From Candidatus Nealsonbacteria bacterium (GTDB taxonomy: Bacteria > Patescibacteriota > Minisyncoccia > Minisyncoccales > CAZKCU01): a stretch of DNA of 64,000 bases. The DNA lies in assembly GCA_047456305.1 (NCBI GenBank), contig CP179888.1, positions 317,307-381,306 on the forward strand, written 5' to 3'. Under the pieces are notes generated by a model, which worked only from the letters and a program-made list of their open reading frames with translations, searched no databases and was not told where the DNA came from. Both the position numbers and the translations under genes were made by a program. Positions 4,548 to 63,128 of the stretch are shown piece by piece; positions within the stretch are counted from its first letter, which is position 1, and the number at the start of each line of letters is the position of its first letter.

Positions 4548-4552
4548 TTTAC

Positions 4553-4600
4553 AAGCTTCCGTAGGAAGCGAAGTTTAAGAAGAGGATTTATCCTCTTTGC
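4553..4600 (-). repeat. Family A repeat, copy A2 (forward relative to rpmI)
   Basis: + strand AAGCTTCCGTAGGAAGC-GAAGTTTAA-GAAGAGGATTTATCCTCTT; lies between the infC 3' end and the rpmI ATG; hairpin 1 overlaps the last infC codons. Confidence 0.65.
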
Positions 4601-5102
4601 TTTTTGAAATTATTGTTGTAAAACCTCTTGACTCTCTTTTTAATTCCCGCTCAATTTTTATTGGTAAAATCCCTTCTAAAATTCTAAGAAATTGGTTCAT
4701 TTTCTCTCTGGCAAAGTCAGGAAGGGCTTTTTGCCGGCCCCTTAAGATTAGTTCCACTCTGACTTTGTGCCCTTTTTTTAAAAATTTTTCTGCCAACTTT
4801 GCCCTAACTTCTAAATCATGTTGGGAAATTCCAAACCCTAATCTTATTCCTTTTAACTCACCCGAACTTTTTGGAGCTAACTTTTCTTTCTTTTTTTCCT
4901 GATAAAGATACTTCCCGTAATCCATTATTTTACAGACTGGCGGTATTACCTTCTCGGTGACTTGAATTAAATCTAAATTACGCTCCCTGGCTATCTGGAG
5001 CGCTTTTTCAATTGGCAAAATTCCCAGCTGTTTTCCGGTTTCATCAATTAACCTAACCTGAGAAGCCCTTATTCGATAGTTGACTAATGGTCTTTTAAAG
5101 AT
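4575..5102 (-). CDS. infC: translation initiation factor IF-3 (non-AUG start, 5' end approximate)
   Basis: The ORF-track M at 5018 is an internal TTG. The frame stays open upstream and encodes ..IFKRPLVNYRIRASQVRLIDETGKQLGI, the conserved IF-3 N-domain. Likely an AUC/AUU-class start near 5102. Confidence 0.8.
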   Translation of the reverse strand: MFKRPLVNYRIRASQVRLIDETGKQLGILPIEKALQIARERNLDLIQVTEKVIPPVCKIMDYGKYLYQEKKKEKLAPKSSGELKGIRLGFGISQHDLEVRAKLAEKFLKKGHKVRVELILRGRQKALPDFAREKMNQFLRILEGILPIKIERELKRESRGFTTIISKSKEDKSSS

Positions 5103-6005: not shown

Positions 6006-7607
6006 ATGATTCGTCAAGAGATAGCAAAATTAATAGAAAAATCAATAAAAGTCCTCCAAAAAGAGAAGGATTTGCCTCAATTTGAAATTCCCGAGATTGA
6101 GATTGAACATCCGGAGGAAAAAATTCACGGCGATCATGCCACAAACATTGCGATGGTAATTGCAAAGAAGGTGAGGAAGAATCCGATGGAAACAGCCAAC
6201 TTGTTAAGTTTAAAGTTTAAGGTTAAAGGTTTAAGGTACCTCGACAAAGTTGAGGTAGTCAAACCAGGATTTATTAATTTTTTTCTTTCAAAAGAATATT
6301 TACAACAGAGAATTGGAGAAATTTTAAAGAAGAGAGAGAAATTTGGTGAATTAAATATTGGTAAAGGAAAGAAGGTTCAGGTAGAATTTATTTCGGCAAA
6401 TCCAACAGGTCCTCTAACTGTCGGTAATGCTCGAGGTGGTCCTTTCGGTGATGTTTTGGGAAATGTTCTGAAAAAAGCAGGATTTAGGATAGAGAAAGCT
6501 TATTATATTAACGATTATGGAATGCAAATTTTAGCTCTTGGTCATTCTATTTTGAAAGATAGCGAAGCGAAATACAAAGGTAAATATATTGATGAACTTA
6601 CCAAAAGAATCAAAGAAAAAGAGCCCTATAAGGCAGGTGAGAGTGCAGCCAAAATTATTATTGAGAATTTTATAAAAAAAACTATAGATAAATTGAAAAT
6701 TAAGTTTGATGAATGGTATTCAGAAAATAAATTACACAGAGATTCTGAAGTTGATAAAACCTTAAAATTTTTAAAGAAGAAAGAATTGCTTTATGAAAAA
6801 GAAGGAGCAATTTGGTTCCAAAGCTCGAAATTTGGTGACAAAAGAGACAGAGTGATGGTAAAGTCCGATGGACCAAAAACCTATTTAGCCGGAGATATTG
6901 CTTATCACCGATATAAATTTGAAAAGAAGAAATTTGATAAGGTAATAGACATTTGGGGAGCAGACCATGCTGGTGATGTTGCTGGACTTCAAGCCGGGGT
7001 AGAGGCTTTAGGTTATAAAGGTAAACTTGATATTTTATTGCTCCAGTTTGTAACTATACTTGAAAAAGGGGAAAAGCTGAAAATTTCAAAAAGGAGAGGA
7101 ACTTTCGTTACTATGGATGAATTACTCCGAGAGGTAGGAGTTGATGTTGCTAGATTCTTTTTTCTCCAAAAATCAGCTAATACCCATTTAAATTTCGACC
7201 TCACTTTAGCCAAAAAACAGTCAGAGAAAAATCCGGTTTATTATATTCAGTATGCTCACGCCAGAATATGTAGTATTTTGCATAAAGCTGTTAATGTTGA
7301 ACGTCAACAAGGTTCTTCCCGGCAAGTCTTCAAACTATTAAATCATCCAAGTGAACTAGAGCTTATTAAACAACTGGTTAGGTTTCCTGAGATTGTTGAG
7401 GATACGACAAAGGATTATCAGGTTCAGAGATTGCCTCAGTATGCATTTGAACTTGCCCATCAATTTCACCAATTTTATAGAGATTGTCAAGTTTTATCAG
7501 ATAACAAAGAATTAACTGAGGCAAGATTGGCTTTAATCTCAGCCACTAAAACTGTCGTAAAAAATGTTTTAGATTTGATGGGCATTTCCGTTCCAGAAAA
7601 GATGTAA
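6006..7607 (+). CDS. argS: arginine--tRNA ligase
   Basis: 533 aa; SANPTGPLTVGNARG (HIGH-region equivalent), class I fold, DALR-type anticodon-binding C-terminus. Confidence 0.95.
   Translation: MIRQEIAKLIEKSIKVLQKEKDLPQFEIPEIEIEHPEEKIHGDHATNIAMVIAKKVRKNPMETANLLSLKFKVKGLRYLDKVEVVKPGFINFFLSKEYLQQRIGEILKKREKFGELNIGKGKKVQVEFISANPTGPLTVGNARGGPFGDVLGNVLKKAGFRIEKAYYINDYGMQILALGHSILKDSEAKYKGKYIDELTKRIKEKEPYKAGESAAKIIIENFIKKTIDKLKIKFDEWYSENKLHRDSEVDKTLKFLKKKELLYEKEGAIWFQSSKFGDKRDRVMVKSDGPKTYLAGDIAYHRYKFEKKKFDKVIDIWGADHAGDVAGLQAGVEALGYKGKLDILLLQFVTILEKGEKLKISKRRGTFVTMDELLREVGVDVARFFFLQKSANTHLNFDLTLAKKQSEKNPVYYIQYAHARICSILHKAVNVERQQGSSRQVFKLLNHPSELELIKQLVRFPEIVEDTTKDYQVQRLPQYAFELAHQFHQFYRDCQVLSDNKELTEARLALISATKTVVKNVLDLMGISVPEKM
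6204..6238. repeat. 7-nt periodic tandem array H1 inside argS
   Basis: TTAAGTT TAAAGTT TAAGGTT AAAGGTT TAAGGTA; translated LSLKFKVKGLRY. Confidence 0.75.
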
Positions 7608-7610
7608 TAA

Positions 7611-7666
7611 GGAACCGTTCGCTTCGCTCACTGTAATCGCTTCACGGTTAAAGCTTCGCGATTAAT
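7611..7666 (+). repeat. Family B repeat, copy B1
   Basis: GGAACCGTTCGCTTCGCTCACTGTAATCGC..GCGATTAAT, ends at ATG 7667. Confidence 0.7.
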
Positions 7667-17668: not shown

Positions 17669-17727
17669 TAGGCGAAGAGAACTTCGTTCTCTTCTTCACC
17701 TTCGCTTTCGCTGCGCGAAAGCTCGGT
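17669..17727 (+). repeat. Family A repeat, copy A3 (forward, most complete)
   Basis: TAGGC-GAAGAGAAC TTC GTTCTCTTC-TTCACCTTCGC-TTTCGC TGC GCGAAA-GCTCGGT; ends 2 nt before ATG 17730. Confidence 0.8.
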
Positions 17728-17729
17728 TT

Positions 17730-25043: not shown

Positions 25044-25097
25044 TAGGCGATGAGGACTTCGTCCTCATCTTCACCTTCGCTTCTGCGGAAGCTCGGT
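25044..25097 (+). repeat. Family A repeat, copy A4 (forward)
   Basis: TAGGC-GATGAGGAC TTC GTCCTCATC-TTCACCTTCGC-TTC TGCG GAA-GCTCGGT; 27 nt before ATG 25125. Confidence 0.8.
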
Positions 25098-25124
25098 AAT
25101 TAATTAATATTGTAGTTTAAATAT

Positions 25125-26807
25125 ATGGGAGAAGTTCTCTTAAATAAATCTGGTAAAAAAAATATTTTATTAGGTAACGAAGCCATTTGTCGGGGAGCTT
25201 TGGAATCAGGGGTTCAATTTGTTTCTACTTATCCTGGAACCCCGGCTTCAGAAATTGGAAATACCTTTTTTAAACTTTCTCAAGCAGGAAAATATAAAGG
25301 TTATTTTGAGTTTTCTACCAATGAAAAAGTAGCTTTGGAAGCAGGAATTGGAGCTTCTTTTTCTGGTTTGAAAACTTTGGTGGCAATGAAAAATTTTGGG
25401 ACAAATGTTGCTTTAGATGCTTTAATTCCCTTTGTTTATACGGGAACCAAAGGCCCTACAGTAATAATATCTGCCGATGATCCTTCCTGCCACAGTTCAG
25501 CTCAATCGGAAGAGAATACCAGAGGGATTTCTTATTTAGCTCATATTCCAACTTTGGAACCTTCTGACCCTCAAGAATGCAAGGATTTTACAAAATTAGC
25601 TTTTAAAATTTCTGAAAAATTCAAAATTCCAGTAATGATAAGAACTACAACCAGAGTTGCTCACCAGCGAGCAATAGTAGAGCTCTCAAATATTCAACAC
25701 CCAAGGTTGGTAAAGGGTGGATTTGTTAAAGACCCTAAAAGATTCGTGACCATGCCTCCGAGAGTTTTAGAAATGAAAAAAGAGCTGCTTAAAAAAATCG
25801 AACAAATCAGAAAATTTTCCGAAAAAAACCCTATAAATTCAATCTCCCGAGCGGTAGCGAAAGGAAAAGAAGAAGATTTATCTTCTTCGCCCTATCGATT
25901 TACGAAATCAATAGATGGAGTGGGGGTGATTACTTCAGGGATTGCTTATTTATATGTAATGGAGGCATTAAATGAGCTTAATTTAAAATTGCCAGTTTTG
26001 AAGCTGGGATTTTTTTATCCCCTGCCGGAAAAGAAAATTCAAAATTTCATTAAAAAATTTAAAAAAGTTTTGATTGTTGAAGAATTAGAGCCATATTTAG
26101 AAAAAGAAATAGAAAGATTAGCAAAAGATGTAAACTCCGAATTAGAGGTAATTGGCAAAAAAATACTATCTGAAGTTGGTGAATTAAAACCCGAAAATGT
26201 AATCTTAGCCATCGCTAAAATTACTGGAAAAAACTACCAACTAAGAACTAAAAACTATCAACTAAAGACTAAGCGTTCTCCTCAGCTTTGTCCAGGTTGT
26301 CCTTATTGGTTAGTTTTTGGAGCAGTTAAAAAAGCGGTTGACTCAAAGAAGGTAATTTTTGGTGGAGACATTGGCTGCTATATGTTGGCTGGCCTGCCTC
26401 CTCATTTCCTTCAAGATTATCTTTCTTGTATGGGTTCTTCAATAGGAATTGCTCACGGGATAAAAAAAGTGACTGGTCAAAAATTAATTACTTTTATTGG
26501 TGACTCAACTTTTTTTCACGCCGGTATCCCAGCTTTGATTAATACAGTTTTCAATAAATCCAATCCTTTAATTATCGTAATGGAGAACCAAACCACTGCA
26601 ATGACCGGTCACCAGCCCCATCCGGGGGCGCCAGCCAAACCAGATGGAATTAAAATAGAAGAAATTGTTAAAGCTTGCGGTGTAAAGAATTTAAAAGTAA
26701 TTGACCCTGTCAATCAAAAAGACTTTATCGCTACCATTAAAGAATTTTTGAACAAAAAAGATGTATCAGTAATTATAGCTCGCCATCCATGCGTAAGGAT
26801 AAAATAG
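25125..26807 (+). CDS. iorA: indolepyruvate:ferredoxin oxidoreductase alpha subunit
   Basis: 560 aa; TPP-binding 2-oxoacid:ferredoxin oxidoreductase pattern, CPGCPY and GDIGCY motifs; followed by iorB. Confidence 0.85.
   Translation: MGEVLLNKSGKKNILLGNEAICRGALESGVQFVSTYPGTPASEIGNTFFKLSQAGKYKGYFEFSTNEKVALEAGIGASFSGLKTLVAMKNFGTNVALDALIPFVYTGTKGPTVIISADDPSCHSSAQSEENTRGISYLAHIPTLEPSDPQECKDFTKLAFKISEKFKIPVMIRTTTRVAHQRAIVELSNIQHPRLVKGGFVKDPKRFVTMPPRVLEMKKELLKKIEQIRKFSEKNPINSISRAVAKGKEEDLSSSPYRFTKSIDGVGVITSGIAYLYVMEALNELNLKLPVLKLGFFYPLPEKKIQNFIKKFKKVLIVEELEPYLEKEIERLAKDVNSELEVIGKKILSEVGELKPENVILAIAKITGKNYQLRTKNYQLKTKRSPQLCPGCPYWLVFGAVKKAVDSKKVIFGGDIGCYMLAGLPPHFLQDYLSCMGSSIGIAHGIKKVTGQKLITFIGDSTFFHAGIPALINTVFNKSNPLIIVMENQTTAMTGHQPHPGAPAKPDGIKIEEIVKACGVKNLKVIDPVNQKDFIATIKEFLNKKDVSVIIARHPCVRIK
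25846..25891 (-). repeat. Family A repeat, copy A5 (reverse), in frame inside iorA
   Basis: CCCGAGC-GGTA-GCGAAAGGAAAA-GAAGAAGAT TT ATCTTCTTC-GCC; translated SRAVAKGKEEDLSSS. Confidence 0.7.
25892..25916. repeat. REP-like palindrome, copy R1, in frame inside iorA
   Basis: CTATCGATTTACGAAATCAATAGAT, same sequence as the copies flanking the Y1 transposase at 62530 and 63060; translated PYRFTKSID. Confidence 0.8.
26232..26273. repeat. 7-nt (21-nt) periodic tandem array H8 inside iorA
   Basis: AACTACC AACTAAG AACTAAA AACTATC AACTAAA GACTAAG; translated KNYQLRTKNYQLKTK. Confidence 0.8.
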
Positions 26808-30185: not shown

Positions 30186-31424
30186 ATGAACATCAAAGAA
30201 ATCAAAAAAGTAGATAGAGAAATTGAAGAACTTATTAAAAAGGAGACAAGAAGGCAACAAGACTCCTTAGATTTAATTGCCTCGGAAAACTATCCCTCAA
30301 AAGCTGTTAGAGAAGCTCTAACTTCAATTTTCATTGCTAAATACGCCGAAGGAAGGTCCCATAAAAGATATTACGGAGGAATGGAAAACATTGATAAATT
30401 GGAAACCTTAGTTGAAGAAAGGGTAAGAAAAGTTTTTGGTTTAGATTCTAAAAATTGGGCAGTTAATGTTCAGCCCTCTTCGGGTGCACCAGCGAACTAC
30501 GAGATTTTACGAGGCCTTTTAAAATTAAATGATAAATTTTTATGCCTATATTTACCTCACGGTGGACATTTAAGTCAAGGAGGCAAAGCATCTTTAACTG
30601 GTCAAGATTTTAGACCTATTTATTATTACCTGGATAAAGATGGTTTTTTAAATTACAAAGAAATTGAAAAATTAGCTATAAAAGAAAAGCCAAAATTGAT
30701 TATTTGTGGTTTTACTGCTTATCCCAGGAAGGCCGACTTTAAAAAATTTGCCAAAATTGCTAAAAAAGTTGGGGCTTATCTTTTAGCCGACACCTCTCAT
30801 ATTACTGGTTTAATTATTGGTGGAGTTCATCCAAGTCCATTTCCTTTTGCTGATGTAGTAATGACTACAACCCATAAAACTTTAAGGGGACCAAGGGGAG
30901 CAATTATTATTTGTAAAAGAAAATTAGAAAACAAAATTTTTCCAAAAGTTTTCCCGGGATTACAAGGAGGTCCTCACCAACATACAATTTGTGCCATTGG
31001 AGTAGCTTTGAAAGAAGCAATGACTCCTGGTTTTAAAAAATATACTAGACAGATTGTTAAAAATACTAAAGCTCTAGCAGCAGGACTTAAAAAATACAAT
31101 TTTAATTTAATTTCTGGTGGCACCGATAACCATTTAGTTTTAGTTGATTTAAGAAACAAAAATATTACTGGTAAACCTGCCCAGGAGTTACTGGAAAAAG
31201 CCGGAATAGTTACCAATAGAAACACTATTCCTTATGATCCTCGCCCTCCCTATAATCCTTCGGGAATCAGGTTAGGCACTCCAGCAATAACTACTCGAGG
31301 GATGAAAGAAAAAGAGATGAAAAAGATTGCCTTTTGGATTAATAAGGTGATTTCAAGCCCAAAATCTTCTCTAAAAATAAAGAAAGAAGTTAAAAAGCTC
31401 TGTCAAAAATTTCCAATTCCATAG
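30186..31424 (+). CDS. glyA: serine hydroxymethyltransferase
   Basis: 412 aa; LIASENY, TTTHKTLRGPRG PLP-lysine motif. Confidence 0.95.
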   Translation: MNIKEIKKVDREIEELIKKETRRQQDSLDLIASENYPSKAVREALTSIFIAKYAEGRSHKRYYGGMENIDKLETLVEERVRKVFGLDSKNWAVNVQPSSGAPANYEILRGLLKLNDKFLCLYLPHGGHLSQGGKASLTGQDFRPIYYYLDKDGFLNYKEIEKLAIKEKPKLIICGFTAYPRKADFKKFAKIAKKVGAYLLADTSHITGLIIGGVHPSPFPFADVVMTTTHKTLRGPRGAIIICKRKLENKIFPKVFPGLQGGPHQHTICAIGVALKEAMTPGFKKYTRQIVKNTKALAAGLKKYNFNLISGGTDNHLVLVDLRNKNITGKPAQELLEKAGIVTNRNTIPYDPRPPYNPSGIRLGTPAITTRGMKEKEMKKIAFWINKVISSPKSSLKIKKEVKKLCQKFPIP

Positions 31425-31439
31425 TTTTTAATTAACATT

Positions 31440-32315
31440 ATGGCGAAAATCCTCGATGGTAAAAAATTATCTGAAGAAATTTTAGAGAATCTTAAAAAAG
31501 ATTACAACCCGTCCACCGCGTCCTCCCACCCGCCGAAGGGCGGGAGGGCCCCTATTAAAAAGAGGAAATTGAAGTTAAGATTGGCAGTAGTCCAAGTTGG
31601 AGAAAACCCAGTTTCTAAAATTTTTATCAATCAGAAAGAAAAAGCCTGTGAAAAAGTTGGCATTGATTTTAAGCTATTTAAATTTTCAACAAAAGCCAAA
31701 ACTCAAAAATTAAAAAAAGAAATTGGGGGAATTATTAAAAATTCAAGCAATTCAGGGGTAGTTATCCAATTACCTTTACCTAAAAAATTTTTGATAGAAG
31801 AATTTTTAAATTTAATTCCAGAAGAAAAAGATATTGATGTTCTATCTGAAAAAAGTTTAGGAAAATTTTATCAAGGGACATTGCCAATTCTCCCGCCAAC
31901 TGTCAGCGGGATTTTCCGTCTTTTAAAAAGTTATCAAATAAAAGTAAAAGGTAAAAACGTTGTTATTGTGGGTGCTGGAAGATTAATTGGTAACCCTTTA
32001 GTCCTCAGGCTTTTACAGCAAGAAGCAACCATTTCAGTTCTTAATGAATTTACAAAAGATACTCCTTCTTTTACAAAAAAAGCCGATATTTTAATTTCTG
32101 GAGTAGGCAAACCTGATTTAATTACCGGGAAGATGGTTAAAAAAGGAGTGGTGGTAATTGATGCCGGAACCTTTATTAAGAAAGGCAGGTTAGTGGGCGA
32201 TGTTAATTTTAAATCAGTTTCCAAAAAAGCAAGCTATATTACCCCGGTCCCTGGCGGTGTAGGACCAATGACCGTAGCCTGCCTAATTGAAAATTTGGTG
32301 AAACTTAATTTATGA
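31440..32315 (+). CDS. folD: bifunctional methylenetetrahydrofolate dehydrogenase/cyclohydrolase
   Basis: ILDGK start, VVQVGENPVS, VVIVGAGRLIGNP, PVPGGVGPMT motifs. Confidence 0.9.
   Translation: MAKILDGKKLSEEILENLKKDYNPSTASSHPPKGGRAPIKKRKLKLRLAVVQVGENPVSKIFINQKEKACEKVGIDFKLFKFSTKAKTQKLKKEIGGIIKNSSNSGVVIQLPLPKKFLIEEFLNLIPEEKDIDVLSEKSLGKFYQGTLPILPPTVSGIFRLLKSYQIKVKGKNVVIVGAGRLIGNPLVLRLLQQEATISVLNEFTKDTPSFTKKADILISGVGKPDLITGKMVKKGVVVIDAGTFIKKGRLVGDVNFKSVSKKASYITPVPGGVGPMTVACLIENLVKLNL
31507..31553 (+). repeat. GC-rich imperfect hairpin carried in frame inside folD
   Basis: CCCGTCCACCGCGTCCTCCCACCCGCC GAAG GGCGGGAGGGCCCC; translated NPSTASSHPPKGGRAP; composition contrasts sharply with the AT-rich flanks. 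Confidence 0.65.
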
Positions 32316-32884
32316 ATTTGGATTTCTTTTTATTTCAACAAATTAATAGTCTTGCTGGAAAATGGTTATGGCTCGATAGTTTGAGTATTTATTTTGCTGA
32401 ACATTTCGAGCATGTTTTATGGTTCATTCTTTTTTTGTTTTTACTGAAAAATTACAAACCGTTCGCTCAGCTCCCTGTAATCCCGCGATTAAAGAAAAAA
32501 TACTGGCCGATGATAATTCAGGCTTTTGGGGCAGCAATTTTAGCAAGATTAGTTGTTGTTAATTTTATTCGCTGGCTTTGGCCAAGACCCAGACCATTTA
32601 TTGAAAACACTGTTAATTTGCTCCTATCTCATAAGGCAGCTTCTTTTCCTTCTGGTCATGCTGCCTTTTATTTTGCTATATCTACGGTTGTTTATTTTTA
32701 CAATAAAAAAGCTGGCATCGGATTTTTTGTTGCCAGTTTTTTAATTTCTATTTCCCGAGTGATTTGTGGAATTCACTGGCCATCTGATATTTTGGTTGGA
32801 GCTTTGATTGGAATTTTTTCTGCTTGGTTGATTATTCTTTTTTTTCAGCGATTTTTCTCAACCTCATCGAAACAATCACTATAA
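32312..32884 (+). CDS. PAP2 family phosphatase (undecaprenyl-diphosphatase-like)
   Basis: 190 aa, about 5 TM segments; PSGH and SRV..G.H..SD PAP2 motifs. Confidence 0.7.
   Translation: MNLDFFLFQQINSLAGKWLWLDSLSIYFAEHFEHVLWFILFLFLLKNYKPFAQLPVIPRLKKKYWPMIIQAFGAAILARLVVVNFIRWLWPRPRPFIENTVNLLLSHKAASFPSGHAAFYFAISTVVYFYNKKAGIGFFVASFLISISRVICGIHWPSDILVGALIGIFSAWLIILFFQRFFSTSSKQSL
32457..32494 (+). repeat. Family B repeat, copy B5, in frame inside PAP2 gene
   Basis: AACCGTTCGCTCAGCTCCCTGTAATCCCGCGATTAAAG aligns with B1 apart from an internal deletion; translated KPFAQLPVIPRLK. Confidence 0.65.
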
Positions 32885-33791: not shown

Positions 33792-35906
33792 TTATTTTGC
33801 CATATTTTTCTCGAAATTGCAATCTTTGTCGGAACACTTAATTTTCCTCCCTTTTTCTACCAAAAGTGAGCCGCATTTTGGGCATTTTTTTCCTGTTGGC
33901 TTATCCCATAAGGCAAAATCACATTTTGGCCATTGATTGCAGCCATAAAAGATTTTTTTCTTTTTAGTTCTTTTTTCAACTATCTCACCCTTTTTACATT
34001 TTGGGCATTTAATTCCCAATTTCTTTTTTTCAAAAGGTTCAGTATATTTACATTTAGGAAAGCGAGAGCAGCCATAGAATTTTCCGAATTTCCCCAGCCG
34101 AATTAAAAGTTGGGCTTTGCATTCTGGACAGATTTTTTCGGTTTTTTCAGTTAAAACCTTTTTTGAAACCTCCTGATATTTTTGTTTTAGGTTTTTTTCG
34201 AAAGGATTGTAAAAATCTCTTATAACCTGAACCCATTTTTCTTTCCCTTGGGCAATTTTATCTAAATCCTCTTCCATTAGGGCGGTAAATTTAATATCAA
34301 CAATTTTTGGGAAGTGTTCTACCAAAATATCGTTCACTACTGTTCCAATTTCAGTTGGTTGAAAGCGCTTCTCTGTATTTTTCTCAATATAATTTCTTTC
34401 TTGAACTGTAGATAAAATGGGGGCATAAGTTGAGGGTCTGCCAATACCATTTTCTTCCAAAGCCTTAATTAGAGTAGCTTCACTGTATCGAGGAGGAGGC
34501 TGAGTAAAGTGCTGGGAAGGAATTAATTTTATAAGTTCTAAAATTTCATTTATCTCTAAAAGTGGCAATTCAGTCTCCTCATATCTTATTGGATATATTT
34601 TTAGAAATCCATCAAACTTCAAGACCTGGCCAGTAGCTTTAAAAGTGTAATTTTTAGCGCCAATATCAATAGTCGTTGAGTCAAGAACAGCTTGACTCAT
34701 CTGACAAGCAATAAATCTTCGCCAGATAAGATCGTAAAGCCGAAACTGCCTCTTGTCTAATTTTGCTTTAATTTTTAAATTTTCAGGAGTTTTCTCAGGA
34801 TAGGTCGGCCTTATTGCCTCATGAGCTTCCTGGGCCCTTTTAATTTTTGTTTTATATCTTCTTAAAAAACCAGCCCAATATTCTTTGCCATAACTCTCAA
34901 TGATAAATTTTCTGGCAGCAAATAAAGATAAATCAGAGAGATTCAGAGAATCGGTTCGATGGTAACTCGTGTATCCCCTTTCATAAAGTTGTTGTGCCAC
35001 TTGCATTGTTAGCCTTGCCGGCCAGTGAAACCTTTTCCAGGTTTCCTGTTGTAAGGTGCTGGTGCTAAATGGCGGTAGGGGATTCCTTTTCACTTCCTTT
35101 CTTTCAATATTGATTACTTTGTATACACAAGCTCGGCGAAGCCGAGCGCAGCGTGAAGATGAAGCGTTAGCTTCATCGACTTCAGCTTTTTCTAAATCTT
35201 TAACAATTTTATCTGCTTCTTTTTTAATTTTAATTCCAAGTTTTGGAATAGTTTCCCCATCTCTTTTAATTAAAATAGCTTCAAGTTGCGGAGAACCGTT
35301 CTCTGTAATTTTCTTAAGTTGGGCGGCAATTGTCCAGTATTCTTGGGGTACAAAATTTTTAATTTCTCTTTCCCTTTCTACAACCAGACGAACTGCTACT
35401 GACTGAACTCTTCCAGCTGACAGGCGTCGAGCCACCTTTTTCCATAAAAAAGGGGATAATTTATAACCAACAATTCTATCTAAAATTCTTCTCGTTTGTT
35501 GAGCATCAACCAAATTTAAATCAATTTTTCTTGGATTCTTTAATGCCTCCTCAATAGCAGATTTTGTAATCTCATGAAAAACAATTCTTTGATAAGGTTT
35601 TTGGCCATTTAGATTTAAAATCTTGGTCAAATGCCAGGCAATACTTTCGCCCTCTCTGTCCGGATCGGTACTTACTATTACTAAATCTGCTTTCTCCACC
35701 TCTTTTTTTAAAACCTGAATTATCTTTCTTGATTTGGGAGGAATAACATATTTAGGTTTAAAGTTATGTTCAACATCAATCCCAAATTCACCCTTAGGCA
35801 AATCTCTGATGTGACCATAGGAAGAAAGAACCCGATATTTAGGGCCTAAAAATCCTTGAAGTGTTTTTGATTTCGTTGGTGACTCAACTACTACGATTAA
35901 TTGCAT
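33792..35906 (-). CDS. topA: DNA topoisomerase I
   Basis: 704 aa; Toprim (VVVESPTKSKT), active-site region YTSYHRTDS, C-terminal C4 zinc-ribbon repeats. Confidence 0.95.
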   Translation of the reverse strand: MQLIVVVESPTKSKTLQGFLGPKYRVLSSYGHIRDLPKGEFGIDVEHNFKPKYVIPPKSRKIIQVLKKEVEKADLVIVSTDPDREGESIAWHLTKILNLNGQKPYQRIVFHEITKSAIEEALKNPRKIDLNLVDAQQTRRILDRIVGYKLSPFLWKKVARRLSAGRVQSVAVRLVVEREREIKNFVPQEYWTIAAQLKKITENGSPQLEAILIKRDGETIPKLGIKIKKEADKIVKDLEKAEVDEANASSSRCARLRRACVYKVINIERKEVKRNPLPPFSTSTLQQETWKRFHWPARLTMQVAQQLYERGYTSYHRTDSLNLSDLSLFAARKFIIESYGKEYWAGFLRRYKTKIKRAQEAHEAIRPTYPEKTPENLKIKAKLDKRQFRLYDLIWRRFIACQMSQAVLDSTTIDIGAKNYTFKATGQVLKFDGFLKIYPIRYEETELPLLEINEILELIKLIPSQHFTQPPPRYSEATLIKALEENGIGRPSTYAPILSTVQERNYIEKNTEKRFQPTEIGTVVNDILVEHFPKIVDIKFTALMEEDLDKIAQGKEKWVQVIRDFYNPFEKNLKQKYQEVSKKVLTEKTEKICPECKAQLLIRLGKFGKFYGCSRFPKCKYTEPFEKKKLGIKCPKCKKGEIVEKRTKKKKIFYGCNQWPKCDFALWDKPTGKKCPKCGSLLVEKGRKIKCSDKDCNFEKNMAK
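35129..35180 (-). repeat. Family A repeat, copy A6, in frame inside topA (forward relative to the mRNA)
   Basis: + strand AAGCTCGG CGAAG CCGAGC-GCA-GCGTGAA-GATGAAGC GTTA GCTTCATC-GAC; translated (minus strand) EVDEANASSSRCARLRRAC. Confidence 0.7.
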
Positions 35907-39906: not shown

Positions 39907-39936
39907 AGTTATTTAATTATAAGCAAAGCTTGAAGT

Positions 39937-39966
39937 TGGTCGTTCGGGCCCTCACTCCCAATTATA
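39937..39966 (+). repeat. Family B-like repeat, copy B4 (diverged)
   Basis: GGTCGTTCGGGCCCTCACTCCCAATTAT compared with GRACCGTTCGCTNNGCTCACTRTAAT; lies upstream of A7 and lepB. Confidence 0.45.
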
Positions 39967-40009
39967 CATCTTGTTGCAAAAATAAAAAATTTAACTTATA
40001 CTTAAAAAA

Positions 40010-40065
40010 GGCAGAGAGGACTTCGTCCTCTTCTTAACCTTCGCCATTATAAATAAAAGCTCGGT
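40010..40065 (+). repeat. Family A repeat, copy A7 (forward)
   Basis: AAGGC-AGAGAGGAC TTC GTCCTCTTC-TTAACCTTCGC-CATTATAAATAAAA-GCTCGGT; ends 2 nt before ATG 40068; hairpin 2 is replaced by AT-rich sequence. Confidence 0.75.
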
Positions 40066-40067
40066 GT

Positions 40068-41982: not shown

Positions 41983-42309
41983 ATGGATTGTCTTTTTTGC
42001 AAAATCATTAAAAAGGAATTACCATCTGAAATCGTTTACGAAGACGATAAGGTTTTGGCTTTTAAGGATATTAACCCTCGGGCTCCCGTACACTTTTTAA
42101 TTGTTCCTAAAAAGCACATTCCTTCAGTAGACCATGTTGAGTTTCAAGACAAAGAGTTGATGGGAGATTTAATTTTAGCTGCCCAAAAAATCGCTAAAGA
42201 AAAAAAATTGAGAGGTTACAGATTACAGATTAATGTTGGCCGCTCAGCTGGCCAAATAGTTGATCACTTACACTTGCATTTACTTAGCCGAGCCGCAGGC
42301 GAAAGATGA
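41983..42309 (+). CDS. HIT family hydrolase
   Basis: CLFCKI start and histidine triad HLHLHLL. Confidence 0.85.
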   Translation: MDCLFCKIIKKELPSEIVYEDDKVLAFKDINPRAPVHFLIVPKKHIPSVDHVEFQDKELMGDLILAAQKIAKEKKLRGYRLQINVGRSAGQIVDHLHLHLLSRAAGER

Positions 42310-42334
42310 AGAAGAGATTTATCTCTTCGCCTAG
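42288..42334 (-). repeat. Family A repeat, copy A8 (reverse)
   Basis: CCGAGC-CGCAGG-CGAAAGATGAA-GAAGAGAT TT ATCTCTTC-GCCTAG; supplies the last codons (SRAAGER) and the stop of the HIT gene; 13 nt before the rpsU ATG. Confidence 0.7.
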
Positions 42335-43949: not shown

Positions 43950-43960
43950 GAACCATAAAG

Positions 43961-44007
43961 AGAACCGTTCACTTCGCTCACTGTAATTTGCTCCGCAAAT
44001 TAAAACT
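43961..44007 (+). repeat. Family B repeat, copy B2
   Basis: AGAACCGTTCACTTCGCTCACTGTAATTTGC TCC GCAAATTAAAACT, ends at ATG 44008. Confidence 0.7.
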
Positions 44008-46606: not shown

Positions 46607-46630
46607 GTTGGGTTAGAATAAAATAATTTA

Positions 46631-46674
46631 GCGGACCGTTCGCTCAACTCACTATAATTTACTCCGTAAATTAT
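46631..46674 (+). repeat. Family B repeat, copy B3
   Basis: GCGGACCGTTCGCTCAACTCACTATAATTTAC TCC GTAAATTAT, ends at ATG 46675. Confidence 0.7.
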
Positions 46675-56399: not shown

Positions 56400-57134
56400 A
56401 TGAATTTAAGCATCATTATTCCAACCTTAAACGAAGAAGATTATTTACCTTTATTATTGGAATCAATTAAGAAGCAAAATTTTAACGGAGATTATGAAAT
56501 AATTGTAGCTGATGCCAACTCAAAAGATAGAACAATAGAAATTGCCAAAAAATACGGCTGTAAAATAACAAAAGGTGGACTTCCAGCTAAAGGAAAAAAT
56601 GAAGGAGCAAAAATAGCTAAAGGTGATTTACTTTTATTCTTAGATGCTGATACAATTTCTCTGCCGCCTAAATTCTTAGATACGATTTTAGAGAAATTTA
56701 GAGCAAGAGATTTAGGTATAGTTTCTTTTTCACTTTCCCCCAAGGAAAATAAATTTGATAAATTTGCTTATGGTCTTTATAATTTTTGGGCAAGATTTAC
56801 CCAGGGTTTTTTGCCCCATGCTGCTCAAGCTATTTTGATTAAAAAAAAGGTTCATCAAGTTGTAGGAGGATTTGATGAAGAAATAAAAATTGCCGAGGAT
56901 CATTTTTATGCCAGGAAAGCTGCAAAATTTGCTAAATTTCGCTTTATTAATCTTCCAGTTTTAATTTCTTCTCGGAGATTTGAGAGAGACGGAAGATTCA
57001 AAACTTATCTGAAATATCTTTTAGTCGGGCTTCATTTGTTTTTTTTGGGACCAATTAAATCAGATATTTTTAGATATAGGTTCGGGTACCATTCAAAAAA
57101 TCAAAAACCGAGCTTCCGAAGGAAGCGAAGGTGA
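56400..57134 (+). CDS. family 2 glycosyltransferase
   Basis: LSIIIPTLNEE, DADT (DxD) and EDH motifs. Confidence 0.75.
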   Translation: MNLSIIIPTLNEEDYLPLLLESIKKQNFNGDYEIIVADANSKDRTIEIAKKYGCKITKGGLPAKGKNEGAKIAKGDLLLFLDADTISLPPKFLDTILEKFRARDLGIVSFSLSPKENKFDKFAYGLYNFWARFTQGFLPHAAQAILIKKKVHQVVGGFDEEIKIAEDHFYARKAAKFAKFRFINLPVLISSRRFERDGRFKTYLKYLLVGLHLFFLGPIKSDIFRYRFGYHSKNQKPSFRRKRR

Positions 57135-57159
57135 AGAAGAGAACAAAGTTCTCTTCGAC
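57107..57159 (-). repeat. Family A repeat, copy A9 (reverse)
   Basis: ACCGAGC-TTCC GAA GGAA-GCGAAGGTGAA-GAAGAGAAC AAA GTTCTCTTC-GAC; encodes the tail PSFRRKRR and the stop of the GT2 gene; 24 nt before the htrA ATG. Confidence 0.8.
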
Positions 57160-57182
57160 TGTCTAAAATAATTTATATATCA

Positions 57183-62529: not shown

Positions 62530-62556
62530 CTATCGATTTACGAAATCAATAGATTG
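62530..62556. repeat. REP-like palindrome, copy R2 (3' flank of Y1 transposase gene)
   Basis: CTATCGATTT ACG AAATCAATAG ATTG; ends 2 nt from the transposase stop codon. Confidence 0.8.
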
Positions 62557-62558
62557 TA

Positions 62559-63128
62559 TTACTCTAAGATTATTTTTTTTATTTTCTCTAGCTCCATTTC
62601 TTTTAACCAATTTTTAACGTTATCTTTATAATTTTCTGCTCCACCAAAAATTTTCAAAAGAAATTCTCTTTGGGTAACTGATGGAAAATTCTTTTTGCCG
62701 ATATAATCTAAATGGCTAGACCAACGAAAAGAATTTAAAATTTCTACGGCTTTTTGGTAGTTTTGGATTTCCCCTTTTCTCCATTCTGGCATCGTTAAAT
62801 CAAGAGGATTGAAATGGATGTAATAAGGTAAGTGTACAAAATGAAGTTCTGAATTTACTAAAACCAATTTATATCGTCCTTGGAATAAAGTTCCTGATCT
62901 TTTATATTTTTGATTAAAATAATTAGCATAACCCACTCCTATTTTTCTCATAAATTTTGTTAAACCACCTTCTTCTCTTTGTCTTAAAAGTAAATGAAAG
63001 TGATTTGGCATTAAACAAAAGGCTAAAATTTCAACAATCAGTTTTCTTGGTTTTTTAATATATTGATTTACGAAATCAATAGATTGGATTATAGTAAAAT
63101 AAAAGGTTACAATATAAAAAATAACCAA
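62559..63128 (-). pseudogene. RAYT / IS200-like Y1 (HUH) transposase, apparently 5'-truncated
   Basis: CLMPNHFHLLL (HUH motif), GTLFQGRYK, YYIHFNP (catalytic Tyr region). The usual N-terminal YHV.NRG strand is absent, and the annotated N-terminus (..IQSIDFVNQYI..) is encoded by REP copy R3. Confidence 0.65.
63060..63087. repeat. REP-like palindrome, copy R3 (inside the 5' end of the transposase ORF)
   Basis: ATATTGATTT ACG AAATCAATAG ATTGG; perfect 9-bp stem. Confidence 0.8.

What the first reader, a model, noticed from the sequence alone, without database searches (positions are those of the whole stretch)
35129..35180. Family A element carried in frame inside the essential topA gene
The + strand segment AAGCTCGGCGAAGCCGAGC-GCA-GCGTGAA-GATGAAGCGTTAGCTTCATC-GAC has both hairpins and both linker boxes of family A. 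It lies inside the topA ORF (minus strand), which stays open across it. It is read as ..LEKA-EVDEANASSSRCARLRRAC-VYKVINIERKEVKRNPLPPFSTSTLQQE. The flanks look like ordinary type IA topoisomerase sequence, while the roughly 17-aa segment is GC-richer and compositionally foreign. This implies a repeat insertion tolerated or exapted as a protein loop. It would also put a stable two-hairpin structure in the middle of an essential mRNA.
Basis: partly seen in the sequence, partly recalled or inferred. Interest (0 to 1): 0.7.

Follow-up and report, generated by a model that had tools for sequence, protein, structure and literature searches.

The report
Hairpin repeat translated inside topA gene
A 57-base hairpin-forming repeat that is scattered through these tiny CPR (Patescibacteria) genomes sits in frame inside the essential topoisomerase I gene and adds 19 amino acids that the closest relatives lack, which makes it a CPR counterpart of the Rickettsia palindromic elements.

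Summary
Window 35124-35180 is a 57-nt, GC-rich (55% against about 34%) insertion in topA (33792..35906, minus strand) of a Candidatus Nealsonbacteria MAG. It is in frame and has no stop codon. It encodes 19 aa (VDEANASSSRCARLRRACV), not about 17.

- **Family membership:** a covariance model built only from five other copies in the window finds the topA copy (26.6 bits, E about 7e-6).
- **Absence elsewhere:** the nearest orthologue (92% nt identity), distant TopA representatives and solved TopA structures lack it.
- **Family A:** it is real and abundant, with 100 hits in 353 kb of CPR DNA. It has three helices (a newly found outer helix P0, then hp1 and hp2), all supported by compensatory changes. 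About 30% of distinct copies lie inside long ORFs, including lepA and ftsK. Others supply C-termini and stop codons.
- **The topA site:** 41 of 119 orthologues are occupied, in three variants plus decayed remnants, and the distribution on the tree is very patchy. The main variant is 98.6% identical between genes whose flanks are about 75% identical. Mismatch clusters next to the site in near-identical allele pairs point to exchange by homologous recombination.

Best reading: a tolerated selfish repeat that behaves like a Rickettsia palindromic element. The mobilising function is unknown, and exaptation is not shown.

The parts
33792..35906 (-). topA (type IA DNA topoisomerase I), 704 aa, host gene of the insert
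   Evidence: ORF. Identical to P0001 'type I DNA topoisomerase [Candidatus Nealsonbacteria bacterium]' with Pfam Toprim, Topoisom_bac and Zn_ribbon_Top1. E = 1.6e-146 to solved TopA 6ozw_A.
35124..35180 (+). The 57-nt family A element (variant T1), antisense to topA. It is read as VDEANASSSRCARLRRACV (TopA residues 243-261).
   Evidence: Boundaries come from the empty site in L001. Covariance-model hit 35125-35182, 26.6 bits. ssDNA fold -16.7 kcal/mol, z = -4.6.
35125..35128 (+). P0 5' arm (ACAC). It is followed by the unpaired AA at 35129-35130.
   Evidence: P0 covariation across 82 copies: 62 have all three pairs Watson-Crick, against a mean of 18.8 with shuffled partners. In the 'His' T1 alleles P0 is a perfect ACAC/GTGT. 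In the window allele it is ACAC/GCGT, with one mismatch.
35131..35147 (+). hp1: GCTCGGC-GAA-GCCGAGC (7 bp, GAA triloop closed by C-G)
   Evidence: Helix 1 has compensatory changes in 6 of 6 pairs across the family.
35148..35157 (+). Linker GCA-GCGT-GAA. GCGT (35151-35154) is the P0 3' arm. GCA and GAA are the conserved unpaired purine boxes.
35158..35177 (+). hp2: GATGAAGC-GTTA-GCTTCATC (8 bp), followed by the terminal GAC at 35178-35180
   Evidence: The same 24-nt module occurs at non-topA sites in other CPR contigs. Helix 2 has compensatory changes in 6 of 9 pairs.
25837..25893 (+). Second intragenic family A copy in the window. It lies in the sense frame inside the 2-oxoacid:ferredoxin oxidoreductase-like gene 25125..26807 (..SRAVAKGKEEDLSSSP..).
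   Evidence: Covariance-model hit, 30.4 bits. Translation. The L001 orthologue has a different, shorter linker at this position.
42286..42333 (+). Family A copy overlapping the 3' end of the HIT-family gene 41983..42309. It supplies the last residues and the stop codon. It is absent from the orthologous site in L001 (47-nt indel).
57106..57161 (+). Family A copy. It supplies the C-terminus (PSFRRKRR*) and the stop codon of the glycosyltransferase-like gene 56400..57134.
4549..4603 (+). Family A copy. It supplies the C-terminus (EDKSSS*) of the IF3-like ORF 4575..5018 (-).
17669..17728 (-). Intergenic family A copy
25044..25098 (-). Intergenic family A copy
40008..40066 (-). Intergenic family A copy with a degraded hp1. 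L001 has three tandem copies at the same spot.

Best explanation
**What it is.** Window 35124-35180 is one copy of a short (about 46-60 nt), non-coding, structure-defined interspersed repeat ('family A') of Nealsonbacteria-like CPR genomes. It lies inside topA, at the codon boundary between Glu242 and the Tyr that precedes the conserved YKVINIEKKEVKRNPLPPF strand.

**Anatomy.** The element strand reads: outer helix P0 (3-4 bp), unpaired GA/AA, hairpin hp1 (mostly GNA or GNNA loops), unpaired GAA/GCA, the P0 return arm, unpaired GAA, hairpin hp2, then CG(A/C)CT.

**Why it survives in topA.** The copy is a multiple of three in length and lies in one of the three stop-free frames. It is translated as a 19-residue coil between a helix and a strand of domain II. 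TopA tolerates it. The peptide is a passenger, because what is conserved is the nucleotide architecture.

**History at this site (inferred).** The insertion happened once in an ancestor of this TopA group. All topA variants share the site, the orientation and the AA...GCA linker signature. It then:
- diversified in its hairpins with compensation (T1 57 nt, T2 54 nt, T3 48 nt);
- decayed in some lines (a stem mismatch in L159, a 33-nt slippage deletion in L160);
- was passed between, or erased from, related lineages by homologous recombination through the highly conserved flanks. This gives the patchy distribution and the near-identity of T1 in diverged genes.

**How the family spreads (inferred, not shown).** A trans-acting function probably recognises the folded single strand. 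The element has no terminal inverted repeats and no target duplication, it inserts and is lost precisely, and it forms tandem arrays.
For: **Family membership and structure**
- Covariance-model hit on the topA copy.
- 100 hits, 85 distinct, in 353 kb of CPR DNA.
- 97.6% of cells are paired against 77.1% in shuffles. 239 cells are compensated on both sides against 72.8. The slide controls fall to 35-64% paired.
- P0 was not in the model yet covaries: 62 of 82 copies against a shuffled mean of 18.8.

**It is an insertion**
- 57-nt precise indel against L001.
- Absent in 78 of 119 orthologues, in the distant representatives inspected and in PDB TopA.

**It is translated, not skipped**
- The four insert lengths known from empty-site comparisons are 57, 54, 48 (topA) and 48 (lepA). 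All are multiples of 3 and free of stop codons.
- The copy at the 3' end of the HIT gene is 47 nt.

**The peptide is a passenger**
- T1 VDEANASSSRCARLRRACV, T2 VDETSSHLHAALPSEACV and T3 VDETSISSSRYADACV share only the ends encoded by the conserved element termini.
- Both hairpins and P0 are kept in T2. T3 keeps P0 and hp2, and its hp1 is reduced to a 2-bp GC-GTCA-GC stem of the short type.

**General behaviour of the family**
- 26 of 85 distinct copies are internal to ORFs of at least 150 aa.
- There is a precise 48-nt insert in lepA in one lineage only. It is absent in a relative at 97% identity.
- Copies supply C-termini and stop codons.
- The window and L001 differ in copy content at 4 sites within about 22 kb.

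**Recombination**
- L030 (T1) and L039 (empty) are 98.5% identical, with 9 of 30 mismatches in the 60 nt right of the site.
- L005 (T1) and L040 (empty) are 97.8% identical, with 7 mismatches in the 33 nt left of the site.
- The T1 insert is 98.6% identical where the right flank is about 75% identical.

**Decay**
-.
Against: - No mobilising enzyme was identified. Only 64 kb of a 640-kb contig and short flanks elsewhere were seen.
- A single ancient insertion followed by recombination needs many exchange events.
- In the window allele no co-converted flank is visible. Its flanks match its empty sister L001, not the T1-bearing L006, down to 6-7 nt from the insert. A precise insertion or excision mechanism is therefore not excluded.
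- The extreme conservation of T1 could instead reflect nucleotide-level function.
- Tolerance by the protein is inferred from conservation of intact alleles in many lineages. It is not supported by a confident 3D model or by expression data.
Confidence: 0.75

Rival explanations
1. Site-specific, repeatedly acting mobility (homing-like, or 'peel-and-paste' as in the IS200/IS605 family). Family A copies insert again and again at exactly this topA position and excise precisely. The patchy distribution and the variants T1, T2 and T3 would then reflect independent gains and losses rather than recombination of an old polymorphism.
For: - Gains or losses are needed in many places on the tree, including between alleles 98% identical.
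- The indels are exact, with no target duplication.
- The window allele shows no co-converted flank.
- T2 carries the hp1 that is commonest elsewhere (GCTTCC-GAA-GGAAGC), and T1 carries an hp2 module found at six or more other loci.
- The family is recently mobile elsewhere: lepA, the HIT 3' end, and tandem copy-number differences.
- It has subterminal hairpins without terminal inverted repeats or target duplications, as in IS200/IS605-derived elements (own knowledge of that family).
Against: - All topA variants share features that are minor in the family (AA instead of GA, GCA instead of GAA). This argues for one origin.
- No common target motif is seen among topA, lepA and HIT sites.
- Mismatch clusters adjacent to the site in two allele pairs indicate recombination tracts.
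- A whole clade shares a decaying T1, and partial remnants exist, which shows vertical descent.
- No transposase or nuclease was found.
Confidence: 0.15
2. The topA copy is kept by selection. It could act as a useful protein loop. It could also act as a DNA or RNA structure inside topA, for example a supercoiling-sensitive cruciform or a pause or stability element that tunes topoisomerase I expression.
For: - The site is occupied in 41 of 119 orthologues across a deep group, whereas the lepA site is occupied in one lineage only.
- T1 is 98.6% identical between diverged genes.
- The variation that does occur in T1 follows the family's structural rules: CGC to CAC restores P0 pairing, and GAC to GCC matches the family consensus.
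- Hairpins are maintained by compensation in T2.
Against: - The closest relatives and 78 of 119 orthologues do without it.
- The peptide is not conserved between variants.
- Copies decay: an A.A mismatch in hp2 in a 14-member clade, hp2 deleted in P0024 and P0028, hp1 degraded in T3.
- The same element sits in unrelated genes and in intergenic DNA in both orientations.
- Nothing links it to supercoiling.
Confidence: 0.07
3. It is not an insertion at all. It is a lineage-specific TopA loop that happens to be palindromic, or an assembly artefact, or an untranslated element (mini-intron, intein, or translational bypass as in T4 gene 60).
For: - TopA orthologues in this group show other short variable segments.
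- One orthologue (P0013) carries an intein.
Against: - The same allele occurs in many independent assemblies, and L016 is almost identical to the window.
- The independent covariance model hits it, and it shares boxes with the intergenic copies.
- The indel against relatives is exact.
- 57 nt is far too short for an intron or an intein.
- All variants are multiples of three in length and free of stop codons, as expected only if they are translated.
Confidence: 0.03

Closest known systems
Rickettsia palindromic elements (RPE)
   Same: - Short palindromic interspersed repeats in a reduced genome.
- A large fraction of copies is inserted in frame in unrelated protein-coding genes, including housekeeping genes.
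- Each copy adds a family-typical peptide without destroying the gene. The review PMC10969869 states this for RPEs: nearly half of 44 copies in R. conorii lie in ORFs.
- Here 26 of 85 distinct copies are internal to long ORFs, in topA, lepA, ftsK and others.
   Different: - Size is about 46-60 nt against about 100-150 bp.
- The host is CPR/Patescibacteria, not Rickettsia.
- The architecture is defined here as three helices with conserved purine linkers and exchangeable hairpin modules.
- Tandem arrays occur.
- Sequence relatedness to RPEs was not tested and is not expected.
REP / BIME elements of Proteobacteria (with RAYT transposases)
   Same: - GC-rich stem-loops of 20-40 nt with conserved linkers.
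- Mosaic combinations of palindromic units.
- Clusters and tandem arrays.
- High copy number, mostly at gene ends.
- Stems are kept by compensatory change.

(Own knowledge of REP/BIME; for family A.)
   Different: - REPs are by definition extragenic, whereas about 30% of family A copies are intragenic and translated.
- There is no conserved 5' GTAG.
- No RAYT gene was seen or could be searched for.
- The unit here is a fixed pair of hairpins enclosed by P0, not inverted pairs of one palindromic unit.
IS200/IS605-derived palindrome-associated elements and MITEs in general
   Same: - Non-autonomous and very short.
- Hairpins lie near both ends.
- There is no target-site duplication.
- Indels are precise, which fits single-strand 'peel-and-paste' transposition (own knowledge).
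   Different: - The terminal inverted repeats and target duplications that define classical MITEs are absent.
- The conserved target tetra- or pentanucleotide and the TnpA partner that define IS200/IS605 mobility were not found (no target motif seen) or not testable (TnpA).
- The hairpins lie only 3-6 nt from the ends.
Intragenic enterobacterial small mobile sequences (ERIC, RU-1/2/3) and similar
   Same: Small repeats that carry open frames and are occasionally found inside genes (abstracts of PMC2759123 and PMC2229807).
   Different: - Those are 100-170 bp elements with terminal inverted repeats.
- They are rarely intragenic.
- They have no three-helix module.

Membership tests
Window 'family A' repeat | Scores with a covariance model built from other copies only | tested here: met
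   Model R1 was built from 5 non-topA copies. The topA copy scores 26.6 bits, E about 7.5e-6, over the full model length.
Window 'family A' repeat | Both hairpins, the conserved linker boxes, and P0 pairing | tested here: met
   hp1 and hp2 fold as predicted. The boxes AA / GCA / GAA / GAC are minority but recurrent variants of GA / GAA / GAA / GCC. P0 is ACAC/GCGT with 3 of 4 pairs, and is perfect in the His alleles.
Rickettsia palindromic elements (RPE) | Palindromic repeat inserted in frame in many unrelated ORFs, adding a conserved peptide | tested here: met
   The feature is as described in PMC10969869.
Rickettsia palindromic elements (RPE) | Size about 100-150 bp and sequence homology to one of the RPE families; host Rickettsia | tested here: not met
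   The elements are 46-60 nt and the host is a Candidatus Nealsonbacteria MAG. Homology to RPE sequences was not tested, because no RPE library is among the tools. This is a functional analogue, not a member.
REP/BIME | Extragenic location | tested here: not met
   26 of 85 distinct copies are internal to ORFs of at least 150 aa.
REP/BIME | Conserved GTAG 5' of the palindrome, and an associated RAYT gene | tested here: inconclusive
   No GTAG is present; the 5' end is (T)ACC(C)GA. The presence of RAYT is not testable on the 64 kb and short flanks held.
Classical MITE | Terminal inverted repeats and a target-site duplication | tested here: not met
   The ends ACC(C)GAGC... and ...TCG(A/C)CT share at most CGA/TCG. 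Empty-site comparisons give 0-1 nt (topA, lepA) or a 3-nt ambiguity (HIT).
IS200/IS605-type palindrome-associated element | Subterminal hairpins, no terminal inverted repeats, no target duplication, precise indels | tested here: met
IS200/IS605-type palindrome-associated element | Insertion 3' of a fixed 4-5 nt target, and a Y1 (HUH) TnpA in the genome | tested here: inconclusive
   The three sites with known boundaries have left flanks TTTGTA, TTCAAT and ACTTAG, with no common motif. TnpA was not searched for, because the whole genome is not available here.
Rfam RNA families | Reaches the gathering score of any curated family | tested here: not met
   The whole window gives only a tRNA. E-value scans of two copies give nothing near threshold: best 22.5 bits against a gathering score of 100.

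The most novel reading that the evidence does not exclude
Family A is not passive junk. It would be the substrate of an undescribed single-strand, structure-recognising mobility or recombination system of CPR bacteria.

- **Recognition features:** the P0-hp1-hp2 module with conserved unpaired purines and GNA loops.
- **Consequence at topA:** the site would be re-targeted or actively maintained by a homing-like drive, or act as a supercoiling-responsive structure inside the gene for the enzyme that removes negative supercoils.
- **What it would explain:** why one 57-nt sequence is almost invariant across topA genes that are about 25% diverged, and why three variants occupy exactly one site.
Probability: 0.12. 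Interest if true: 0.8.

Novelty: new member of a known kind. Interest (0 to 1): 0.55.

Why it matters
- **Streamlined genomes that carry selfish DNA.** CPR/Patescibacteria genomes (about 0.6 Mb here) are regarded as streamlined. This lineage nevertheless carries roughly one copy of a 50-nt structured repeat per 3.5 kb, and tolerates copies translated inside essential genes (topA, lepA, ftsK). Until now this pattern was mainly associated with Rickettsia.
- **Annotation and alignment.** It explains many short 'foreign' inserts and odd C-termini in CPR proteins. These otherwise confuse annotation, alignment and structure prediction.
- **Strain markers.** The elements provide natural presence/absence markers for strain tracking and for measuring recombination between CPR populations.
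- **Permissive sites.** The pattern marks sites in TopA and other proteins that accept insertions.
- **Mechanism.** The conserved three-helix architecture, backed by covariation, gives a concrete handle for finding the still unknown function that moves or maintains such elements.
- **Prior description.** I found no description of this in the papers searched. That search covers only open-access literature.

Tried and rejected
1. **Exact and near-exact searches of the window with the topA element.** They found only itself. The family is defined by architecture, not by sequence identity. Copies were found through the repeat finder families D1 and D16.
2. **Genome-contig scan with a degenerate 19-base pattern.** Only about 13 of 118 loci, all low-GC CPR MAGs, carried real two-hairpin copies. 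No taxonomic census is possible from it. The label 'Candidatus Saccharibacteria' on several TPA MAGs is probably generic: L124 is the contig that encodes TopA P0005.
3. **AlphaFold2, twice (20 and 80 sequences).** pLDDT was 45 and 51 and pTM 0.26-0.27. The models are unusable for 3D placement, so no fold search was made. Only the secondary structure around the insert is cited.
4. **Rfam, at gathering and E-value thresholds.** No family matched.
5. **Kink-turn and hammerhead readings of the GA/GAA internal loop.** I considered them by eye and rejected them. The loop is 2x3 rather than 2x5, and there is no CUGAUGA...GAAA core.
6. **Intein, intron or translational bypass.** Rejected on size, frame and absence of stop codons.
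7. **Ancestral TopA loop.** Rejected.
8. **Compensatory change within T1 in the VDESNVSSS clade.** The DNA shows G-C changed to A.A. That is decay, not compensation.
9. **Target-site motif.** None is apparent from the three sites with known boundaries.
10. **Literature searches for CPR palindromic or in-frame repeats.** They found nothing relevant.
Full report
**1. The observation**

The quoted sequence is at window 35129-35180. It lies inside a 704-aa minus-strand ORF, 33792..35906, that stays open across it.

The ORF is identical to a protein named type I DNA topoisomerase from a Candidatus Nealsonbacteria MAG (contig 639,534 bp). It has the Toprim, Topoisom_bac and zinc-ribbon Pfam domains. 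It matches solved TopA structures at E = 1e-146.

The window is AT-rich (GC 0.30-0.37). The element has GC 0.55.

- As single-stranded DNA the 57-mer folds into exactly the two hairpins described: -16.7 kcal/mol, z = -4.6, no shuffle as good.
- In the mRNA sense strand both hairpins also form. In a 111-nt context the signal is weaker (z = -2.4).

**2. Is 'family A' real, and is the topA copy a member?**

Exact or 3-mismatch searches find only the topA copy itself. Repeat families D1 and D16 led to five copies with the same plan: (A)CCGA - hp1 - GAAGGTGAA - hp2 - CG(C/A)CT. Their stem sequences differ.

I built a covariance model from those five copies only (A3, R1). Searching the whole window with filters off gave:

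- the five training copies (66-80 bits);
- two new copies, 42286-42333 and 25837-25893;
- the topA copy as the eighth hit, over the full model length, at 26.6 bits, E about 7.5e-6.

That is about one per 3.5 kb.

On that alignment 97.6% of cells are standard pairs, against 77.1% after shuffling. 239 cells carry changes on both sides, against 72.8. Sliding the partner by 1-3 columns drops pairing to 35-64%.

**3. A third helix**

Folding showed that 3-4 nt at the 5' end pair with the middle of the linker. Across copies this pairing covaries: ACC/GGT, ACCC/GGGT, ATC/GAT, ACGC/GCGT, ACAC/GTGT, ACTC/GAGT, AAAC/GTTT, TCCC/GGGA.

62 of 82 distinct copies have all three inner pairs Watson-Crick. With shuffled partners the mean is 18.8 and the maximum 32 in 2000 trials. 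This helix was not part of model R1, so the test is independent.

The module is therefore: P0 - GA/AA - hp1 - GAA/GCA - P0' - GAA - hp2 - CG(A/C)CT.

Loops are mostly GNA triloops closed by C-G (CGAAG, CGCAG, CGTAG) or tetraloops (GTTA, TTTA, GCAA). From my own knowledge, d(GCGAAGC)-type GNA loops are the classic very stable DNA mini-hairpins.

The conserved unpaired purines are strand-specific. Copies nevertheless occur in both orientations relative to genes. This fits recognition at the DNA level better than an RNA function. No Rfam family matches.

**4. It is an insertion**

In an alignment of 20 orthologues the segment is a 19-aa block between ...KDLEKAE and YKVINIE.... The seven closest relatives (83-90% identity) lack it.

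At nucleotide level the empty site in L001 (92% nt identity over topA) reads GAAGCTGAA|TACAAAGTA. The window has 57 extra bases at that point, with no duplication beyond a 1-nt ambiguity.

- The more distant TopA representatives inspected, from the library clustered at 50% identity, have no extra residues there.
- Solved TopA 6ozw_A aligns with a gap.
- The site lies between a helix (228-239) and the strand that leads to the conserved PFxTSTLQQ segment.
- AlphaFold gave only low-confidence models (pLDDT 45 and 51). In them residues 240-261 are coil. 'Surface loop' is thus plausible but not shown.

**5. The topA site across relatives**

Of 119 orthologues (at least 73% identity), the counts are:

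| State | Count | Peptide |
|---|---|---|
| Empty | 78 | none |
| T1 | 23 | VDEANASSS[R/H]CARLRRACV |
| T2 | 13 | VDETSSHLHAALPSEACV |
| T3 | 3 | VDETSISSSRYADACV |
| Remnant | 2 | ALPSEACV |

At DNA level:

- T2 (54 nt) has different but compensated stems. Its hp1, GCTTCC-GAA-GGAAGC, is identical to intergenic copies in the window. Its hp2 is GATGAGA-GGAAG-TCTCATC, and P0 is a perfect ACGC/GCGT.
- T3 (48 nt) has the short type of hp1.
- All three share the site, the orientation, the frame at both ends, and the minority linker signature AA...GCA. I take this as evidence for one original insertion.
- The peptides differ in the middle because hairpin length changes shift the frame locally. The conserved object is the nucleic-acid structure, not the protein.

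On a neighbour-joining tree built without the insert columns the states are very patchy. Examples:

- P0018 (T1), P0088 (empty), P0106 (empty) and P0030 (T3) form one tight clade.
- P0016 (T1) is next to P0080 (empty).
- P0001, the window allele (T1), is next to P0002 and P0003 (empty).

**6. How the patchiness arises**

Two near-identical pairs were compared at DNA level.

- **L030 (T1) against L039 (empty).** 98.5% identity and an exact 57-nt indel. 9 of the 30 mismatches fall in the 60 nt immediately to the right (YKVINIEK against YRVEKIEK). The latter sequence is also found in the more distant empty allele P0114.
- **L005 (T1) against L040 (empty).** 97.8% identity. 7 mismatches fall in the 33 nt immediately to the left.

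Such clusters are what conversion tracts look like. Insert-bearing and empty alleles appear to be exchanged by homologous recombination between related lineages.

In line with horizontal spread, T1 is on average 98.6% identical between genes whose adjacent 150 nt on the right are about 75% identical.

Vertical descent with decay is also seen:

- A 14-member clade shares a T1 in which one hp2 pair became A.A (L159).
- P0024 lost hp2 plus one host codon through a 33-nt deletion between GCNGCG repeats (L160).

One caveat remains. The window allele shows no co-converted flank. A precise insertion or excision mechanism therefore cannot be excluded. I give that rival 0.15.

**7. The family elsewhere**

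A metagenome scan for the 24-nt hp2 module of T1 returned 30 loci. About half are the topA site. The others combine the same hp2 with at least six different hp1/P0 modules. Their contexts:

- in frame inside lepA, in L018 (KARK[VDEANASSSPFANARV]IETKY);
- in ftsK, which carries two or three such inserts;
- in an FAD-dependent oxidoreductase;
- in a sigma-like protein;
- upstream of pilM;
- in intergenic DNA;
- in a tandem array with a 53-nt period.

The lepA insert (48 nt) occurs in one lineage only and is absent from a relative at 97% identity. That makes it a recent and exact insertion.

Of the 85 distinct copies, 26 are internal to ORFs of at least 150 aa. 18 are antisense, read as (V/G)DE..SSS... 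8 are sense, read as ..AKGE(D/E)E..LSS... Three of the six frames of the T1 sequence are free of stop codons (read directly from the sequence).

In the window itself:

- One further copy is translated inside the 2-oxoacid:ferredoxin oxidoreductase-like gene (25837-25893).
- Three copies supply the C-terminus and stop codon of genes: the HIT-family gene, a glycosyltransferase-like gene and an IF3-like gene.

Between the window and its 92%-identical relative L001, four sites in about 22 kb differ in family A content. They are topA, the HIT 3' end, one copy against three tandem copies between pth and the signal peptidase gene, and the spacer between the signal peptidase gene and hisS. Turnover is therefore fast.

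The genome-collection scan was largely wasted on chance hits. Every genuine two-hairpin match came from low-GC CPR MAGs.

**8. What it is and how it compares**

The behaviour is that of the Rickettsia palindromic elements: short palindromic selfish repeats, with a large share inserted in frame in unrelated genes (PMC10969869).

It is not a member of that family, because size, host and architecture differ. It resembles REP/BIME in its modular hairpins, linkers and arrays, but it is not extragenic and lacks the GTAG box. It lacks the terminal inverted repeats and target duplications of classical MITEs. The lack of duplications, the precise indels and the near-terminal hairpins recall IS200/IS605-type single-strand transposition. 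Neither a target motif nor a transposase could be shown.

I therefore file it as a new member of a known kind: in-frame palindromic repeat elements, here in CPR bacteria. I found no paper describing this for CPR, within the limits of an open-access library.

**9. Verdict**

- The interpretation 'repeat insertion tolerated in an essential gene' is supported. 'Exapted' is not supported.
- **Shown:** family membership, insertion status, structure with covariation, in-frame occupancy of many genes, polymorphism, and recombination signatures.
- **Inferred:** translation of the insert, its surface location, a single origin at the topA site, and the single-strand mode of mobility.
- **Unknown:** what moves it, and why T1 is so invariant.

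Noticed in passing
window 7606-7638, 32450-32482, 43956-43988, 46627-46659: A second repeat family, AACCGTTCGCTTCGCTCACTGTAAT(C), has four copies, mostly in short spacers between genes (family D4). It may be a promoter- or terminator-like box, or another mobile repeat.
   Followed up: no
window 25893-25932, 62531-62570, 63061-63100: A third repeat, the imperfect palindrome TATCGATTTACGAAATCAATAGAT (family D7). The first copy directly follows the family A copy inside the oxidoreductase gene, so that linker holds two different repeats in frame. The L001 orthologue has yet another perfect 13-bp palindrome at the same linker.
   Followed up: partly
window 25837-25893 within gene 25125..26807: A second translated family A copy in the window, this one in the sense orientation (..SRAVAKGKEEDLSSSP..).
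   Followed up: partly
window 42286-42333, 57106-57161, 4549-4603: Family A copies overlap gene 3' ends and provide the last residues and the stop codon of a HIT-family gene, a glycosyltransferase-like gene and an IF3-like gene. The HIT copy is absent in L001, where the protein ends differently.
   Followed up: partly
TopA orthologues P0011, P0111, P0023, P0062, P0035, P0058, P0004/P0005 (alignment A2): Other short, patchy, compositionally odd inserts lie at other TopA positions: PAPYRTEGSGAG, EEEDKSSSSPFTGTRE, FAPASAKATADKKAQAY, LSPSTDGLGPALLKKGGG and a 34-aa block. This suggests that further repeat families are translated in this protein.
   Followed up: no
L015 5314-5370 and 5752-5809: One TopA orthologue (756-aa ORF) carries two family A copies: T1 at the standard site, and a second copy in the sense orientation about 145 codons away.
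   Followed up: no
P0013 (TopA orthologue, 1207 aa): It has Pfam hits to intein-splicing and LAGLIDADG homing-endonuclease domains. An intein therefore sits in topA of a close relative.
   Followed up: no
L026 3600-3760; L001 5779-5943; L123 503-669: Family A copies abut head to tail in tandem arrays (period 53-54 nt). The number of units differs between close relatives.
   Followed up: partly
L006 13787-15368: A reverse transcriptase (RVT_1) lies next to a bAvd-like gene. This looks like a diversity-generating retroelement, about 2-3 kb from topA in a relative.
   Followed up: no
window 31495-31568: The most GC-rich 40-nt stretch of the window (0.82) contains the hairpin CCCGCC-GAAG-GGCGGG, at the end of gene 30186..31424 and the start of 31440..32315.
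   Followed up: no
window about 39930-39975: A 45-nt segment (TGGGAGTGAGGGCCCGAACGACCAACTTCAAGCTTTGCTTATAAT) is present in the window but absent from the orthologous spacer of L001. It may be another small insertion.
   Followed up: no
window 35056-35406 (+): The 116-aa plus-strand ORF listed here is an artefact. It is the open sense frame of the element joined to antisense topA sequence.
   Followed up: yes
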